IMG/VR virus record: IMGVR_UViG_3300015615_000196
Location: 1-64,000 of that record
DNA: 64,000 bases
Reading direction: 5' to 3' (one strand)
From: a virus
Taxonomy: Duplodnaviria > Caudoviricetes
In this document: one piece after another, positions 51,522 to 61,790 of the stretch
Layout of the letters: every line of letters starts with the position of its first letter
Numbering within the stretch: position 1 is the first letter of the stretch
Made by a program: the position numbers and the translations under genes
The notes under the pieces: model-generated
Told to the model about the DNA's origin: nothing
What the model saw: only the letters and a program-made list of their open reading frames with translations
Database searches by the model: none

Positions 51522-51602
51522 AACTGAAAATTGTTAAATTGTTAAATGATTATTTTCTTTCGTTACTTGGACACTGTGTCCGAGTAAATGTCCAAGTTCA
51601 GT

Positions 51603-51638
51603 TTATGGAGGTCGTTCGATGATCTATAACTTTTTCAT
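51603..51638 (-). CDS. putative leader peptide MKKL(TAG)IIERPP-stop
   Basis: ATG AAA AAG TTA TAG ATC ATC GAA CGA CCT CCA TAA after A-rich start context; hairpin at 51565-51597 follows. Confidence 0.65.
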
Positions 51639-51654
51639 GATTGTAGTGTTTAAT

Positions 51655-52026
51655 TTATTTAAATGATTTTAATGCCAGTGGTAGGTTCGAAAGCATCTTT
51701 CGAATTTCAGGTGTGGCGTATACGGCAAGAGCAGTTGCTTGATCCTGAATATCAGGTTCACGGAAAAGTGTGACGTAAGGCGTTGTCTCCCTTAATCGAT
51801 TGTACCAATCGATCAAAGACGCTTCGTCTTTAACTGCAAGTGTGATAATTGAATTGGATTCTTCTTTCCATTGCTTCGCAATAGCAGGATGCTCGTGTAT
51901 GAAGTCAGCAATGGCGTGGGCGGTCTGGACGACCTGATAACCCGGTGAAATATCCTGTCTGGTAAGTGTTACCAGCTTGGATTCGGTAAATCTCGAAATC
52001 TACCCGATGTTGTGATCTTTTTTCAT
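51655..52026 (-). CDS. Pth2-like peptidyl-tRNA hydrolase with in-frame TAG at codon 9 (missed by ORF track)
   Basis: MKKDHNIG*ISRFTESKLVTLTRQDISPGYQVVQTAHAIADF...SIITLAV...FREPDIQDQATALAV...LSNLPLAL; TAG at 52000-52002. Confidence 0.8.
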
Positions 52027-52081
52027 GACAGTTGTTTTTAAATTGTGTTTCGTTTAAATCTAAGTGCCTTGTAACTATATA

Positions 52082-52107
52082 TACGCAAAGGAGGGAAAAA
52101 GGTTTCA
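52082..52107 (-). promoter_or_regulatory. ECF-type promoter TGAAAC-N16-CGTA for the Pth2-like operon
   Basis: Exact SigW-type consensus; terminator hairpin just upstream (~52111-52140). Confidence 0.8.
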
Positions 52108-52160
52108 ATAAAAAAAGGGTTTTTTTCAAAACCCTCTTTTCAGTCGAATTTAAACGATTT

Positions 52161-52928
52161 TTAGTTCTCGTCTTCGTCAGAAAGTAATGATTCCGAATTT
52201 ACAGATGCCAAACTTGCACTCATACCTCTGTATGAAGCTGCTGCTCTTGACACTTTACTGTAAAGGACTTGATTACCAAGTGATGTGTTTTGGAACTGGA
52301 AGGTATTACCTTGAGAGATATTTAAACCCTTGCTCACAGTAACTGCGTCCTCAGTTGAACATAAGAACAAAAACTGCCAGTTGTTTTTCTTTTGATACGC
52401 AATCAAATCGGCAATGTCTGTTTGTTTGAACTCTGTGCTGGAATTTTCTCCACCATCTGTTACGATGATACACAAAACCTTTGTAGGTCTCTGTGATTCC
52501 TTCACATTCTGCATAGTTGCTTTGTATCCAGTGACACTCTTTCCAATTGCATCATACAATGCAGTCATGCCTCTCGGTACAAAGGTAGCAGTAGTCAACT
52601 CAGGTACATCTTGAATGTCAATGCTCTTACCCTCATACAACGGTTCGAATCTGTCATCAAATAACGTTCCTGATAAAGTTGCTTTATCTTTCAGTTTCTT
52701 CTGCTCACTAATGAAATTATTGTATCCACCGATTGCGTCATTTACTACAGGTCGCATTGAACCAGAACGGTCGAGAATTGCGATGATGTGAGTGGATTCT
52801 TTTTTACGTGCTGTGGTTTTTTTAGCCTTCACAGTGGGCTTTTTTGCCTTAGCTTTTACCGCTTTTTTTGCTGCGGTTTTTTTAGCTTTGGCCGTAGTCT
52901 TCTTTGGTCGTGCCATAAAAGTTGTCAT
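52161..52928 (-). CDS. vWA-domain protein with Lys/Ala-rich N-terminal tail
   Basis: MIDAS DRSGSM, TALYDAIG, IVTDGGENSS. Confidence 0.9.
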   Translation of the reverse strand: MTTFMARPKKTTAKAKKTAAKKAVKAKAKKPTVKAKKTTARKKESTHIIAILDRSGSMRPVVNDAIGGYNNFISEQKKLKDKATLSGTLFDDRFEPLYEGKSIDIQDVPELTTATFVPRGMTALYDAIGKSVTGYKATMQNVKESQRPTKVLCIIVTDGGENSSTEFKQTDIADLIAYQKKNNWQFLFLCSTEDAVTVSKGLNISQGNTFQFQNTSLGNQVLYSKVSRAAASYRGMSASLASVNSESLLSDEDEN

Positions 52929-53051
52929 TAAATAAGGTTATACGCTGGTAAATACAGCACCTACAAATTTAATTAAGGATTTGTTCACCACCAAGGAAAC
53001 TTAATTAAAATTTTGCCGTAAATGCCTGAAATTCTGTTGTATTTATAGGAT

Positions 53052-53447
53052 ATGATTACAATCCACAAGAAAGATGGGCTTCAAACAGACGAGAACTACC
53101 TCAACTATATTACTGATTTCGTCAAATTTGCTGCTGCCATCCTGAACATGAAGGACGACTTCAACCTTTTCCTTCTTGGAAAGGGTCAGGATGGGGAGTC
53201 TACGACAGGTGGATACAGTCCGAGCGAAAATACGATCCGTGTTCTTTATCAGGACAGAGCATTAGTGGACATCTTGAGAAGTATCGCTCACGAAATGGAG
53301 CATCAGCGTCAGAATAATCACGAACTCATTCAAGGAAAACCACAGAATATCGGTGGGTTCTTGGAGAATGATGCAAACATCATTGCTGGAATCTTAATTA
53401 AACTTTACGTCAAAGCGACAAACAATCACAACCTATACTGGATGTAA
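53052..53447 (+). CDS. HExxH zincin-like protein
   Basis: LRSIAHEMEH...ENDAN. Confidence 0.7.
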   Translation: MITIHKKDGLQTDENYLNYITDFVKFAAAILNMKDDFNLFLLGKGQDGESTTGGYSPSENTIRVLYQDRALVDILRSIAHEMEHQRQNNHELIQGKPQNIGGFLENDANIIAGILIKLYVKATNNHNLYWM

Positions 53448-53472
53448 TTGTCACGCTTGACTATTACACTGT

Positions 53473-53817
53473 ATGGAGAAGATTTCTAAAGTCATCAGAT
53501 CACACGCGAATGGATCAATGTTCGAGTACGTGTTCTTTTGTCCGGGATGTGGTTGTGCACACGGGATTCGTACTACAAGTTGGCCGATGCCAACCGGATT
53601 AACAGAAGAGTACATTGAACTCTTCCAGAACAAATGGACTTTTAATGGTGATGTTGAGAAGCCTACTATACACCCTTCCATTCATGTATGGCATAAAGAT
53701 AAGAAAGGCAATAAAACTACAACTTGCCATTCGTTCGTTACGGAAGGTAAAATCCAATACCTCAATGATTGTATCCACGATTTAAAGGGACAGACAATCG
53801 ACTTGCCGGATTTTTGA
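53473..53817 (+). CDS. DUF6527-like Cys/His protein
   Basis: FCPGCGCAH...WTFNGD..KPT..PSI...CHSF...DCIHDLKGQT. Confidence 0.7.
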   Translation: MEKISKVIRSHANGSMFEYVFFCPGCGCAHGIRTTSWPMPTGLTEEYIELFQNKWTFNGDVEKPTIHPSIHVWHKDKKGNKTTTCHSFVTEGKIQYLNDCIHDLKGQTIDLPDF

Positions 53818-53893
53818 GCACAAGGTGGGATTCGAACCCACGACATATGCCTGTTTTGCAGACAGGAGCCTTGAACCACTTGGCGACATGTGC
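53817..53893 (-). tRNA. tRNA-Cys(GCA)
   Basis: Cloverleaf; loop CTGCAAA. Confidence 0.9.
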
Positions 53894-53898
53894 GTGTG

Positions 53899-53980
53899 TA
53901 CCCCCGACAGGATTCGAACCTGTACGCCTTTCGGCACTACGTTCTAAGCGTAGCATGACTACCATTTCCAACACGGGGGC
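53899..53980 (-). tRNA. tRNA-Leu(TAG)
   Basis: Class II cloverleaf; loop CTTAGAA. Confidence 0.93.
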
Positions 53981-54007
53981 ATTTTAATCTCTTTCTAATA
54001 AGTATTT

Positions 54008-60668: not shown

Positions 60669-60740
60669 TACCCCTGACAGGAATCGAACCTGTATCAAAT
60701 GATTAGAAGTCACTTATTCTGTCCATTGAACTACGGGGGC
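60669..60740 (-). tRNA. tRNA-Arg(TCT)
   Basis: Loop CTTCTAA. Confidence 0.92.
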
Positions 60741-60748
60741 AGATCGGT

Positions 60749-60985
60749 TTAAACTCCGAACGTGAATTGGAAGTTCTCCCCTAAATCTCTTTTCACCTTT
60801 TGTCTGATGATGTTCTTGAAGTTTCCTTCGAACAAGAATGCAGTCAAGCCAACGTGAGCAATCACTCTTTTTTGTTTTCCACTCTCTACGATTGTGGATA
60901 CTGAGTTGATGCCTTCGACTTCAACTAAATTCATTTCGTTCAACAGAACAAACTTGTCAGAGACTAAATCTTTGATTGTATACAT
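60749..60985 (-). CDS. hypothetical protein
   Basis: Between tRNA-Tyr and tRNA-Arg. Confidence 0.6.
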   Translation of the reverse strand: MYTIKDLVSDKFVLLNEMNLVEVEGINSVSTIVESGKQKRVIAHVGLTAFLFEGNFKNIIRQKVKRDLGENFQFTFGV

Positions 60986-61000
60986 GCATTTAATTTTTAG

Positions 61001-61083
61001 AGCCAACTGTGGGATTCGAACCCACGCGACCTCACGGTTCCTGATTACAAATCAGGTGCAATCGTCCTCTATGCGAAGTTGGC
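61001..61083 (-). tRNA. tRNA-Tyr(GTA)
   Basis: Class II; loop TTGTAAT within CCTGA/TCAGG; discriminator reads U. Confidence 0.88.
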
Positions 61084-61260
61084 GTTTAATGTCAGTAAAT
61101 ATCTTGCCACAGATAAATACTGGCACTATTATGCGTAATTATACGGATTTTATCCCGCATACGCAAATAATACTTCTCAACATGTCAATGATCAAATGAG
61201 ACCAGTGAATAAGGCTGTGCTTCGGCAAGCACATTTACGGCAACCTTATTCAAGGTTTCG

Positions 61261-61332
61261 TGGGACTAACAGGAATCGAACCTGTGCTGCGAGATTTTCA
61301 GTCTCGTACTCTACCTACTGAGTTATAGTCCC
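61261..61332 (-). tRNA. tRNA-Phe(GAA)
   Basis: Loop CTGAAAA. Confidence 0.93.
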
Positions 61333-61337
61333 AAATG

Positions 61338-61466
61338 CACAAAGGGTGGGAGTCGAACCCACAAGATACTTGAACCTACTACGAGTCACCTTCGCTTGAA
61401 GGCTTCTCTTTTTTGTTCGTTCTCACCGTTTTGGAGACGGGTTACCTCACCAATGGTGGCCGATGT
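61338..61466 (-). tRNA. tRNA-Trp(CCA)-like with ~60-nt extra arm
   Basis: A1-U72, G73; CCGT-CTCCAAA-ACGG; normal T arm; long structured insertion. Confidence 0.65.
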
Positions 61467-61471
61467 GTGTG

Positions 61472-61542
61472 CACAGGTAGTAGGATTCGAACCCACATCA
61501 ACGGTTTTGGAGACCGCTATACTGCCGTTGTACGATACCTGT
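61472..61542 (-). tRNA. tRNA-Trp(CCA)
   Basis: Loop CTCCAAA; first tRNA of the array. Confidence 0.92.
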
Positions 61543-61574
61543 AAAATAAAAAACCCGATCTTTTGGATCGGGTC
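61543..61574 (-). terminator. intrinsic terminator immediately upstream of the tRNA array (putative attenuator)
   Basis: ACCCGATC-CAAAA-GATCGGGT then TTTTTATTTT abutting tRNA-Trp. Confidence 0.88.
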
Positions 61575-61601
61575 TTTTTGATTCTTTATTCTATCTACGA
61601 C

Positions 61602-61730
61602 TTAGATAGTGTTTAAGTCAAACGACCCGATATGAGAATTACTGCCTCTAAAATTGAGCGTAGAAATTCCTCCTGTTATGGTTGAACCACACCAGTTAAT
61701 GCGGGAAATATTTGACATTAGACTTTTCAT
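61602..61730 (-). CDS. putative 42-aa attenuator leader peptide (below ORF-track cutoff)
   Basis: MKSLMSNISRINWCGSTITGGISTLNFRGSNSHIGSFDLNTI*; contains ATCGGGTC complementary to the terminator 5' arm. Confidence 0.75.
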   Translation of the reverse strand: MKSLMSNISRINWCGSTITGGISTLNFRGSNSHIGSFDLNTI

Positions 61731-61764
61731 TTTTTCTTAAATCTTGAGCAAATGTACAGATAAA

Positions 61765-61790
61765 TACGCAATGCGCAAGAAAAGGTTTCA
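61765..61790 (-). promoter_or_regulatory. ECF-type promoter TGAAAC-N16-CGTA for leader + tRNA array
   Basis: Exact consensus about 35 nt upstream of the leader ATG. Confidence 0.8.

What the first reader, a model, noticed from the sequence alone, without database searches (positions are those of the whole stretch)
51565..61790. Proposed circuit: tRNA-starvation attenuator, tRNA array with amber suppressor, amber-gated ribosome-rescue operon
The parts are each visible: leader and terminator at 61543-61730; a co-directional array with no evident opposing gene from 61542 down to the CUA tRNA at 54875; two amber-gated ORFs at 51603-52026; both units share the same promoter consensus. Inference: when host defences such as anticodon nucleases deplete tRNAs, stalling in the leader switches on replacement tRNAs, and the co-transcribed suppressor then unlocks Pth2-like and HD proteins to recycle peptidyl-tRNA and heal RNA ends. 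I know of no description of this cascade, but could not search.
Basis: inference. Interest (0 to 1): 0.9.

Follow-up and report, generated by a model that had tools for sequence, protein, structure and literature searches.

The report
Phage tRNA attenuator beside amber-gated hydrolase
In this 363-kb phage a tiny test gene, spelled in the amino acids of the 28 tRNAs behind it, probably switches that tRNA block on when those codons are read slowly. Next to it, a tRNA-hydrolase-like gene can be made only if a UAG stop is read through. Both devices recur in many giant phages, but the proposed chain linking them is not the conserved logic.

Summary
The observed parts are real. A promoter motif, a 42-codon leader ORF and an intrinsic terminator abut the first of 28 co-directional tRNA genes. 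An Infernal-supported tRNA with anticodon CUA lies in the array. A PTH2-fold gene has TAG as codon 9 and no usable start after it.

The leader behaves as a trp-type attenuator. The genome's three other tRNA blocks have the same layout, and so do 24 more units in relatives and in published huge phages. Leader composition follows array content (466 of 891 residues in set against 231 expected; 0 of 20,000 permutations). A leader segment pairs with the terminator's 5' arm and co-varies with it.

The early TAG is kept in 13 of 13 related Pth2-like genes, including cultured Tenacibaculum phage pT24, where the domain is fused to the HD-like domain.

The cascade is only partly supported:
- The array's CUA tRNA has C33 instead of U33.
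- A canonical CUA tRNA lies elsewhere in the genome behind its own promoter.
- Relatives' suppressors have their own promoters.
- pT24 has the amber module without tRNA arrays.
- The HD gene here carries no amber codon.
- The "second amber ORF" has 11 codons.

This scan had already noted both modules on other DNA. I found no publication of either.

The parts
61761..61787 (-). Promoter-class motif (AACCTTTT, 11 nt, CGTATTTA). It overlaps a Bacteroidota-type TTG-N19-TACATTTG promoter at 61778-61749.
   Evidence: The motif occurs 7 times in the whole genome: before all four tRNA leaders, the Pth2 unit, the GOLLD RNA, and at 45577. The TTG-N18-21-TAnnTTTG scan gave 68 sites against about 28 in shuffles.
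61602..61730 (-). Leader ORF of 42 codons plus TAA. 37 of its 41 post-initiator residues are amino acids served by the array, and its codons sample 18 of the 20 distinct anticodons.
   Evidence: binomial p = 1.6e-7; 0.08% of small ORFs are as enriched; 34 of 41 codons are read by array tRNAs; the 18-of-20 count was made by hand on that table.
61702..61723 (-). Region 1 (leader codons 3-10). It pairs with region 2 in the minimum-free-energy fold of the full leader transcript.
61611..61632 (-). Region 2. Its core at 61632-61623 is complementary to the terminator's 5' arm (antiterminator). It lies 19-28 nt before the leader stop.
   Evidence: fold truncated before the 3' arm. (duplex -14.7 kcal/mol against -6.6 +/- 1.9 in shuffles; 0 of 300 shuffles as good).
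61547..61574 (-). Intrinsic terminator: 9-bp GC-rich stem, 5-nt loop and T-run. It ends 4 nt before tRNA-Trp.
53816..61542 (-). Array of 28 tRNA genes (Trp, Phe, Thr, Arg, Ile, Ser, Asn, Gly, Leu-CUN, Cys and CUA) interspersed with small minus-strand ORFs (DUF6717, AAA_28 ATPase and others).
54875..54947 (-). tRNA with anticodon CUA. It is atypical: anticodon loop CCCUAAA (C33), a G27-A43 mismatch and discriminator U73. No promoter or terminator lies within 260 nt upstream.
52110..52140 (-). Terminator-like hairpin with T-run after the vWA gene. It closes the upstream unit.
52078..52104 (-). The same promoter-class motif, in front of the Pth2-like gene.
   Evidence: Pth2 homologues in relatives carry a motif-like box upstream as well.
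51655..52026 (-). Pth2-like gene: ATG, 7 codons, TAG (52002-52000), then a 114-codon PTH2-fold domain. The next in-frame ATG/GTG/TTG lies 62 codons after the TAG.
   Evidence: (PF01981, 29.2 bits against cut-off 23).
51603..51638 (-). Mini-ORF of 11 codons with TAG as codon 5, followed by an 11-bp hairpin without a U-tract (about 51597-51565). Role unknown.
49838..50443 (-). HD-like gene (PHROG 14850). It is the last of three tightly packed ORFs downstream of Pth2, and it has its own ATG and no amber codon.
   Evidence: (HD 19.2 bits, below cut-off 22). It is fused to the Pth2-like domain in pT24.

Best explanation
Two separately conserved translation-control devices of a clade of giant phages sit side by side and share a promoter class. 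The hosts are probably Bacteroidota.

(1) A ribosome-mediated, trp/ilv-type transcription attenuator governs the tRNA array.
- The leader is written in the codons read by the array's tRNAs.
- If any of those codons is decoded slowly, the ribosome lags. Region 2 then pairs with the terminator's 5' arm, and RNA polymerase reads into the tRNA genes.
- If decoding is fast, the ribosome covers region 2, the terminator forms and transcription stops.
- The result is a negative-feedback controller of tRNA supply.

(2) A Pth2-fold gene carries a UAG a few codons after its ATG, so the domain is made only when a phage CUA tRNA outcompetes release factor 1. Its partner is the HD-like protein, which is co-operonic here and fused to it in pT24.

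In this genome the array also carries an atypical (C33) CUA tRNA with no promoter of its own. Attenuator read-through may therefore add some suppressor. The main suppressor is more likely the canonical CUA tRNA at 299 kb, which has its own promoter.

Shown: the anatomy, the statistics, the conservation and the co-variation. Inferred: translation of the leader, conditional termination, decoding of UAG, and the enzyme activities.
For: Attenuator:
- All four tRNA blocks of the genome have the layout motif, leader, terminator. The enrichment table is diagonal: 1.7-3.7x for a leader's own block and at most 0.98x for the others.
- At codon level, leader A has two CUN Leu codons matching Leu(UAG/AAG), plus one unmatched TTA near its 3' end. 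Leader C uses only UUA/UUG, matching Leu(UAA/CAA).
- The 1:2, 2:3 and 3:4 pairings are seen in A, C and D.
- A scan for the motif in IMG/VR and three complete relatives gave the same architecture. So did the published huge phages LR745206, LR756502 and LR756504.
- Over 28 units, 466 of 891 leader residues fall in set, against 230.8 +/- 28 when leaders and arrays are re-paired (0 of 20,000). All 20 amino acids are commoner in leaders whose array holds their tRNA.
- Where tRNA-Trp or Leu-CUN sits in another block, W or L moves to that block's leader.
- Region 2 beats shuffles at p <= 0.05 in 15 of 21 units. In nearly all it lies about 10-35 nt before the leader stop (two short-leader units overlap or pass it). 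It changes together with the terminator arm.

Amber gate:
- TAG stands at codon 3-14 in 13 of 13 clade members. It is never TAA or TGA, and the peptides before it are unrelated.
- The base after TAG is a purine in 13 of 13, against 7 of 19 ordinary TAG stops (p = 4e-4).
- A second TAG lies inside the domain in LR756501.
- A CUA tRNA lies within 3 kb or elsewhere in the genome in 10 of 13.
- The PTH2 fold is supported.
Against: - There are no expression data.
- Leader B's antiterminator is weak (p = 0.2).
- The region 2 core lies just outside the footprint of a ribosome parked at the stop codon. The model therefore needs close transcription-translation coupling, which is untested in these hosts.
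- The array's CUA tRNA lacks U33 and has a mismatched anticodon stem, so it may be weak or dead.
- Three huge phages of about 640 kb with an amber Pth2 showed no canonical CUA tRNA among their Infernal tRNA hits. One has a tRNA with an 8-nt loop that contains CUA.
- The archaeal Pth2 catalytic lysine appears to be replaced by an invariant tyrosine. The protein also scores far below the NCBIfam Pth2 equivalog cut-offs.
- TAG still ends about 8% of this phage's genes, so a strong suppressor would be costly.
Confidence: 0.72

Rival explanations
1. Host anticodon nucleases deplete tRNAs. Leader stalling then opens the array, and the co-transcribed CUA tRNA in turn unlocks Pth2-like and HD proteins that recycle peptidyl-tRNA and heal RNA ends.
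For: - The window's CUA tRNA lies inside the array, with no promoter, -7 box or terminator within 260 nt upstream.
- In G006, G007 and G008 a CUA tRNA follows the homologous array and precedes the amber Pth2 gene.
- The same promoter class serves both units.
- Pth2 and HD are linked by fusion.
Against: - The canonical CUA tRNAs of G000 (299 kb), G008 and G009 have their own promoter box about 10 nt upstream and no leader.
- pT24 has the amber module without arrays or leaders.
- The array copy here is the only CUA tRNA with C33.
- The HD gene has no amber codon.
- Nothing tested links the system to host defence.
Confidence: 0.15
2. The TAG is a true stop of a 2-13-codon upstream mini-ORF. The Pth2-like domain is then made by re-initiation at a non-canonical codon just after it, or is kept off. 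In this reading the mini-ORF senses release factor 1 or peptidyl-tRNA drop-off, not a suppressor.
For: - The codon after TAG is ATT or ATA, both near-cognate starts, in 10 of 13 genes.
- Three huge phages have an amber Pth2 but no canonical CUA tRNA was found in them.
- Two-to-four-codon minigenes are known from phage lambda bar to cause peptidyl-tRNA drop-off, which is the substrate of Pth (own knowledge).
Against: - In three genes the next codon is GTT or ACT, which are not near-cognate starts.
- The stop is always TAG although TAG is the rarest stop.
- One TAG lies inside the domain in LR756501. Another stands at codon 26 of a methyltransferase-like ORF right after a CUA tRNA in G007.
- CUA tRNAs are tightly linked to the gene, even in the distant clade that lacks the TAG.
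Confidence: 0.12
3. The leader ORF is an ordinary small phage gene with its own terminator. Its resemblance to the array's amino-acid set is chance or low complexity.
For: No transcript or ribosome data exist. Leader B has a weak alternative pairing.
Against: The permutation test (0 of 20,000), the 28 units, the per-amino-acid co-variation, the matching of Leu codon families and the co-varying 2:3 pairing all argue against it.
Confidence: 0.02

Closest known systems
Multivalent leader-peptide transcription attenuators of amino-acid operons (E. coli/Salmonella trpL, hisL, thrL, ilvGMEDA leader; pheST leader)
   Same: A short translated leader is rich in the codons being monitored. A region 1:2 / 2:3 / 3:4 set of alternative hairpins ends in an intrinsic terminator. 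Several amino acids are sensed by one leader, as in ilv and thr.
   Different: The regulated genes are tRNA genes of a phage, not biosynthetic or synthetase genes. The output (tRNA) therefore feeds back directly on the signal (decoding speed). One leader samples up to 10 amino acids and 18 anticodons. I found no published case.
Stop-codon-recoded phages with phage suppressor tRNAs (TAG read as Gln, 'code 15'; Lak and crAss-like phages)
   Same: A phage-encoded CUA tRNA, and in-frame TAG in phage genes that must be read through.
   Different: This genome is standard-code: coding density is 91% under code 11 and no higher with TAG as sense, and TAG still ends about 8% of genes. The amber codon is confined essentially to one gene, always near its start, which looks like a gate and not a change of code.
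prfB (release factor 2) autoregulation through an early in-frame stop codon
   Same: An in-frame stop early in a translation-factor gene makes output depend on the balance between termination and an alternative decoding event.
   Different: Here the alternative event would be suppression by a dedicated tRNA, not a +1 frameshift. It is also unknown whether the product feeds back on the suppressor. This is an analogy only.
Archaeal/eukaryotic peptidyl-tRNA hydrolase 2 (PF01981; PDB 2zv3, 1q7s, 1wn2, 1xty)
   Same: The fold matches (the top 13 Foldseek hits are all Pth2, TM about 0.6), as do the N-terminal R-x-D ... Q-x-x-H-A motif and the size.
   Different: Identity is only 17-25%. The score is far below the NCBIfam equivalog cut-offs. 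The position of the catalytic lysine holds an invariant tyrosine. In pT24 the domain is fused to an HD-like domain. Activity is untested.

Membership tests
Leader-peptide (ribosome-mediated) transcription attenuator | A short ORF with a start codon lies between the promoter and the regulated genes | tested here: met
   42-codon ATG ORF at 61730-61602, 31 nt after the motif.
Leader-peptide (ribosome-mediated) transcription attenuator | The leader is enriched in codons tied to the regulated function | tested here: met
   37 of 41 residues in set, p = 1.6e-7. 34 of 41 codons are read by array tRNAs. Permutation over 28 units gave 0 of 20,000.
Leader-peptide (ribosome-mediated) transcription attenuator | An intrinsic terminator lies between the leader and the regulated genes | tested here: met
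   Hairpin and T-run at 61574-61547, 4 nt before tRNA-Trp.
Leader-peptide (ribosome-mediated) transcription attenuator | A mutually exclusive antiterminator uses the terminator's 5' arm, and its partner lies within reach of the translating ribosome | tested here: met
   Region 2 at 61632-61623, -14.7 kcal/mol, 0 of 300 shuffles as good. 15 of 21 units reach p <= 0.05, with arms that co-vary.
Leader-peptide (ribosome-mediated) transcription attenuator | Termination responds to the supply of charged tRNA | not testable with these tools
tRNA (Rfam RF00005), amber suppressor | Cloverleaf above the gathering score, with anticodon CUA | tested here: met
   52.6 bits against 29. The alignment places CUA at positions 34-36.
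tRNA (Rfam RF00005), amber suppressor | Canonical anticodon loop (U33) and a fully paired anticodon stem | tested here: not met
   The loop is CCCUAAA and 27-43 is G-A. ARAGORN finds nothing. All 13 other CUA tRNAs compared have U33.
tRNA (Rfam RF00005), amber suppressor | Is charged and decodes UAG | not testable with these tools
   No close paralogue reveals its identity; the best match is 67%.
Peptidyl-tRNA hydrolase 2 (PF01981) | Sequence match above the Pfam gathering score | tested here: met
   29.2 bits against 23, covering profile positions 2-112 of 115.
Peptidyl-tRNA hydrolase 2 (PF01981) | Pth2 fold | tested here: met
   AF2 model with pLDDT 79.6. Foldseek top hits are 2zv3, 1q7s, 1wn2, 1xty and 3erj.
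Peptidyl-tRNA hydrolase 2 (PF01981) | Equivalog-level match and the catalytic lysine | tested here: not met
   TIGR00283 scores 23.8 against 82, and NF003314 22.3 against 126. An invariant Tyr stands where 2zv3 has the G-K lysine. The role of that lysine is from my own knowledge.
Stop-codon-recoded (code 15) phage | TAG is used as a sense codon across many genes, and coding density rises when TAG is read | tested here: not met
   Coverage is 0.912 against 0.915, and 43 of 522 ORFs end in TAG. Only Pth2 survives the scan for early ambers with no downstream start.
HD-domain phosphohydrolase (PF01966) | Match above the gathering score | tested here: inconclusive
   19.2 bits against 22. PHROG 14850 matches at E = 1.5e-66 but has no assigned function. 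The nearest named Atlas cluster is 'polynucleotide adenylyltransferase', with HD in 15% of its members.

The most novel reading that the evidence does not exclude
The window shows a closed-loop, phage-borne controller of the tRNA pool. Each attenuator measures decoding speed for nearly every isoacceptor in its array and tops up only the block that runs short. In this lineage the array-embedded CUA tRNA also passes that shortage signal on to an amber-gated enzyme pair (Pth2-like plus HD-like) that works on tRNA 3' ends. tRNA loss, whatever its cause and including host tRNA-targeting defence, would then induce both replacement and repair.
Probability: 0.15. Interest if true: 0.95.

Novelty: new variant of a known kind. 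Interest (0 to 1): 0.8.

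Why it matters
Phage tRNA genes are usually explained by codon usage or as spare parts against host tRNA nucleases. How their expression is controlled has been an open question.

A leader-peptide attenuator in front of tRNA genes would be the first case I know of in which this classic mechanism regulates the decoding molecules themselves. That gives a direct feedback loop on translation speed. It is present in published huge-phage genomes, where it went unremarked.

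The amber-gated Pth2-like gene gives the 'orphan' suppressor tRNAs of standard-code phages a natural client. It is present in a cultured phage (pT24 of Tenacibaculum), which makes it testable. It also shows that gene callers truncate or miss this gene.

The leaders and gates are compact, modular parts that could serve as sensors of tRNA availability.

Tried and rejected
- Genome-wide TAG recoding: rejected. Flanks of relatives are also standard-code.
- Pseudogene or sequencing error for the TAG: rejected by 13 of 13 conservation with unrelated upstream peptides.
- Second amber ORF as a gene: it has only 11 codons, and the hairpin after it has no U-tract (fold z = -0.55).
- Close relatives through the 622-aa neighbour and the DUF6717 protein: none found in IMG/VR. 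Megablast against phage records found nothing.
- Distant Pth2-linked contigs G002-G005 showed no convincing leaders. G001 had one Phe/His/Tyr-matched candidate about 660 nt before its tRNAs.
- Identity of the CUA tRNA by similarity to paralogues: inconclusive.
- A strict pattern for a CUA loop plus T-arm in the three 640-kb phages gave no hits. ARAGORN on all their Infernal tRNA regions found no canonical CUA tRNA.
- Rfam on window 1-53800: nothing above gathering scores. The motif at 45577 has no known RNA behind it.
- Literature: five full-text searches and a term search of Al-Shayeb et al. 2020 gave no description of either module. Borges et al. 2022 is not held in the library.

Full report
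WHAT THE WINDOW IS. The window is the first 64 kb of a 362.6-kb virus record with direct terminal repeats and 40.5% G+C. ARAGORN finds 61 tRNA genes in the genome, in four large blocks plus a few singles. The genome uses the standard code. Greedy ORF coverage is 0.912 under code 11 and 0.915 with TAG as sense, and 43 of 522 ORFs end in TAG. Leader starts lack Shine-Dalgarno sequences. TTG-N18-21-TAnnTTTG promoters are enriched (68 against about 28 in shuffles). Relatives include a Tenacibaculum phage. Together these point to a Bacteroidota host; that is inference.

THE OBSERVATION.
- On the minus strand a promoter-like motif (61787-61761) is followed by a 42-codon ORF (61730-61602), a hairpin that contains the stop codon (61609-61591), and a GC-rich hairpin with T-run (61574-61547). 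tRNA-Trp starts at 61542.
- From there to 53816 lie 28 tRNA genes and about a dozen small ORFs, all on the minus strand. No minus-strand terminator-like site lies between them. No Bacteroidota-type promoter stands between the leader and the CUA tRNA.
- Infernal finds a tRNA at 54947-54875 (52.6 bits) with CUA at positions 34-36. ARAGORN does not call it and reports instead an overlapping tRNA-Ser that Infernal does not support. The reason is probably its anticodon loop CCCUAAA, with C33 instead of the near-universal U33, and a G-A mismatch at 27-43.
- After two plus-strand ORFs and a vWA gene come a terminator-like hairpin (52140-52110), a second copy of the motif (52104-52078) and an ORF that starts at 52026 and has TAG as codon 9.
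- The 114 residues after the TAG match Pfam PTH2 above its cut-off and PDB Pth2 chains by profile. They fold into a model whose 13 best Foldseek matches are all Pth2 structures. The next in-frame ATG/GTG/TTG is 62 codons after the TAG.
- The 'second amber ORF' is an 11-codon mini-ORF (51638-51603).
- The HD-like gene (50443-49838) has its own ATG and no TAG.

THE LEADER IS AN ATTENUATOR MATCHED TO ITS ARRAY.
- The decisive evidence is replication. The other three tRNA blocks of the same genome each have the same motif, a leader that starts MK, and a terminator. The Tyr/Lys block has a leader with six Lys and three Tyr in 21 codons. The Pro/His/Gln block has a run PQPQHQPQ. The Asp/Leu/Ala/Glu/Met/Val block has a leader with 24 of 38 residues from that set.
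- Each leader is enriched 1.7-3.7-fold for its own block and not for the others.
- Codon families also match. Leader A uses CUA and CUC for Leu, where its array holds Leu-UAG and Leu-AAG. It also has one unmatched UUA near its 3' end. Leader C uses only UUA and UUG, where its array holds Leu-UAA and Leu-CAA. Leader A touches 18 of the array's 20 distinct anticodons, by my hand count on the table.
- Folding gives the classical four regions in A, C and D. An early leader segment pairs with a late one (1:2). The late one is complementary to the terminator's 5' arm (2:3). The terminator itself is 3:4.
- The motif occurs only seven times in the genome. A scan for it in IMG/VR returned many contigs with the same architecture.
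- I fetched three complete relatives of 326-366 kb. Their blocks are syntenic and have matched leaders.
- The published huge phages LR745206, LR756502 and LR756504 group their tRNAs differently, and their leaders follow. One example is a PQPQDQDP run where Asp tRNAs join Pro and Gln.
- Over 28 units, 466 of 891 leader residues are in set, against 230.8 +/- 28 when leaders and arrays are re-paired (0 of 20,000). Every one of the 20 amino acids is commoner in leaders whose array carries its tRNA.
- tRNA-Trp sits in the large array in two genomes and in the acidic/aliphatic block in two others, and W moves with it. The one genome whose large array lacks Leu tRNAs has a leader with no Leu.
- The segment complementary to the terminator arm beats shuffles in 15 of 21 units. 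In nearly all it lies about 10-35 nt before the leader stop. It changes together with the arm sequence.

HOW IT MOST LIKELY WORKS. A ribosome that is delayed on any monitored codon leaves region 2 free to pair with the emerging terminator arm, so polymerase continues into the tRNA genes. A ribosome that runs through covers region 2, and the terminator forms. With no ribosome at all, 1:2 forms and termination follows. The signal is decoding speed, that is, the supply of cognate charged tRNA. Because the output is tRNA, the loop is self-limiting. What depletes the pool cannot be told from sequence: a codon-usage mismatch, phage-induced host shut-off or host tRNA nucleases are all possible.

THE AMBER CODON IS A CONSERVED GATE.
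- Relatives of the Pth2-like protein at 35-59% identity carry TAG between an ATG and the domain. They come from five IMG/VR records, five published huge phages and cultured Tenacibaculum phage pT24. With the window's own gene and L002, that makes 13 of 13. The TAG stands at codon 3-14, after peptides that are unrelated in sequence and length. The stop is never TAA or TGA.
- The base after TAG is a purine in all 13, and A in 11, against 7 of 19 ordinary TAG stops here (p = 4e-4). From my own knowledge, this is the context known from E. coli to favour suppression.
- LR756501 has a second TAG inside the domain. In G007 a methyltransferase-like ORF right after a CUA tRNA has TAG at codon 26.
- CUA tRNAs lie within 3 kb of the gene, or elsewhere in the genome, in 10 of the 13.
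- A more distant clade without the TAG still keeps a CUA tRNA less than 1 kb upstream, and often a tmRNA beside it.
- In pT24 the amber-started Pth2-like domain is fused to the HD-like domain. The GenBank CDS starts at an internal Met. In LR745206 the two genes are neighbours. Here HD is the last gene of the tightly packed run behind Pth2.
- Caveats: the enzyme is divergent, with Tyr at the catalytic-Lys position and scores far below the equivalog cut-offs. In three 640-kb phages I found no canonical CUA tRNA.

IS THERE A CASCADE?
- In favour: the window's CUA tRNA has no promoter or terminator of its own upstream and is presumably co-transcribed with the attenuated array. A CUA tRNA also follows the homologous array in three relatives.
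- Against: that tRNA is the only one of 14 compared with C33.
- Against: the genome has a canonical CUA tRNA at 299220-299292 with a motif-type promoter ending about 10 nt before it and no leader. The CUA tRNAs of G008 and G009 look the same.
- Against: G007 places one CUA tRNA downstream of Pth2.
- Against: pT24 has only four tRNAs, no leaders, and still the suppressor with the amber Pth2-HD.
- The conserved logic is therefore a shared promoter class for RNA genes and the Pth2 gene, with two independent control devices. In this genome the attenuator may add a minor suppressor input.

WHAT IS KNOWN. Leader-peptide attenuation and phage suppressor tRNAs are textbook or recently published. I found no account of attenuators in front of tRNA genes, or of an amber-gated Pth2-like gene. 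I ran five full-text searches on these points and a term search of the paper that published the huge-phage genomes. Earlier notes of this same scan describe both modules on many other genomes and in the other windows of this genome. I treated these as leads and re-tested the claims here. What this report adds is the test of the coupling between the two modules.

Noticed in passing
outside the window: G000 about 190634-191807 (L016:673-1094): A copy of the same promoter motif is followed by about 1.1 kb without ORFs. That stretch contains a GOLLD RNA (RF02032, 159.8 bits against cut-off 150) and then tRNA-Gln. IMG/VR loci L103 and L124 show the same motif followed by a similar RNA.
   Followed up: partly
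window 45551-45577 (-): The seventh copy of the promoter motif lies inside a 136-aa ORF call. It is followed by a 13-codon MK-ORF and about 250 nt with GNRA-like loops before the next gene. There is no Rfam match above gathering score.
   Followed up: partly
window 54837-54924 (-): ARAGORN calls a tRNA-Ser(UGA) here that overlaps the Infernal-supported CUA tRNA. It is probably a false call built on that tRNA's T-arm.
   Followed up: yes
G007 about 125041-126200 (L155): The gene order is amber Pth2, tRNA-Ile, tRNA-Ile, tRNA-CUA, then a methyltransferase-like ORF with an in-frame TAG at codon 26, again followed by ATT. This is a second amber-bearing client next to the suppressor.
   Followed up: partly
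L207/L208 (Tenacibaculum phage pT24, LC168164: 194095-195036): The Pth2-like and HD-like domains form one frame that starts ATG-AAA-TAG. The deposited CDS BPT24_235 starts at an internal Met and so misses the Pth2-like part. A tRNA-Sup is annotated 2.6 kb upstream.
   Followed up: yes
L146 (G006) and L148 (G013): The Pth2-like gene is interrupted after its first 25-30 codons by a large inserted ORF of 250-400 aa, rich in C-x-x-C pairs. The 5' part of the domain is duplicated after the insert. This may be a mobile intron or a homing-endonuclease insertion.
   Followed up: no
L223, L228, L229, L231 and L225 (LR756504): There are several tRNA-Glu-like genes with 6- or 8-nt anticodon loops that ARAGORN cannot assign. 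One tRNA has an 8-nt loop AUUCUAAC that contains CUA.
   Followed up: no
outside the window: G000 97820-98490 (-): Between the terminator of the Asp/Leu/Ala/Glu/Met/Val leader and the first tRNA lie a 91-aa ORF and several T-arm-like fragments that no tool calls as tRNAs.
   Followed up: no
window 51565-51638 (-): An 11-codon mini-ORF has TAG as codon 5, again followed by AT. It ends just before an 11-bp hairpin without a U-tract, ahead of the three ORFs that end with the HD-like gene. Its function is unknown.
   Followed up: partly
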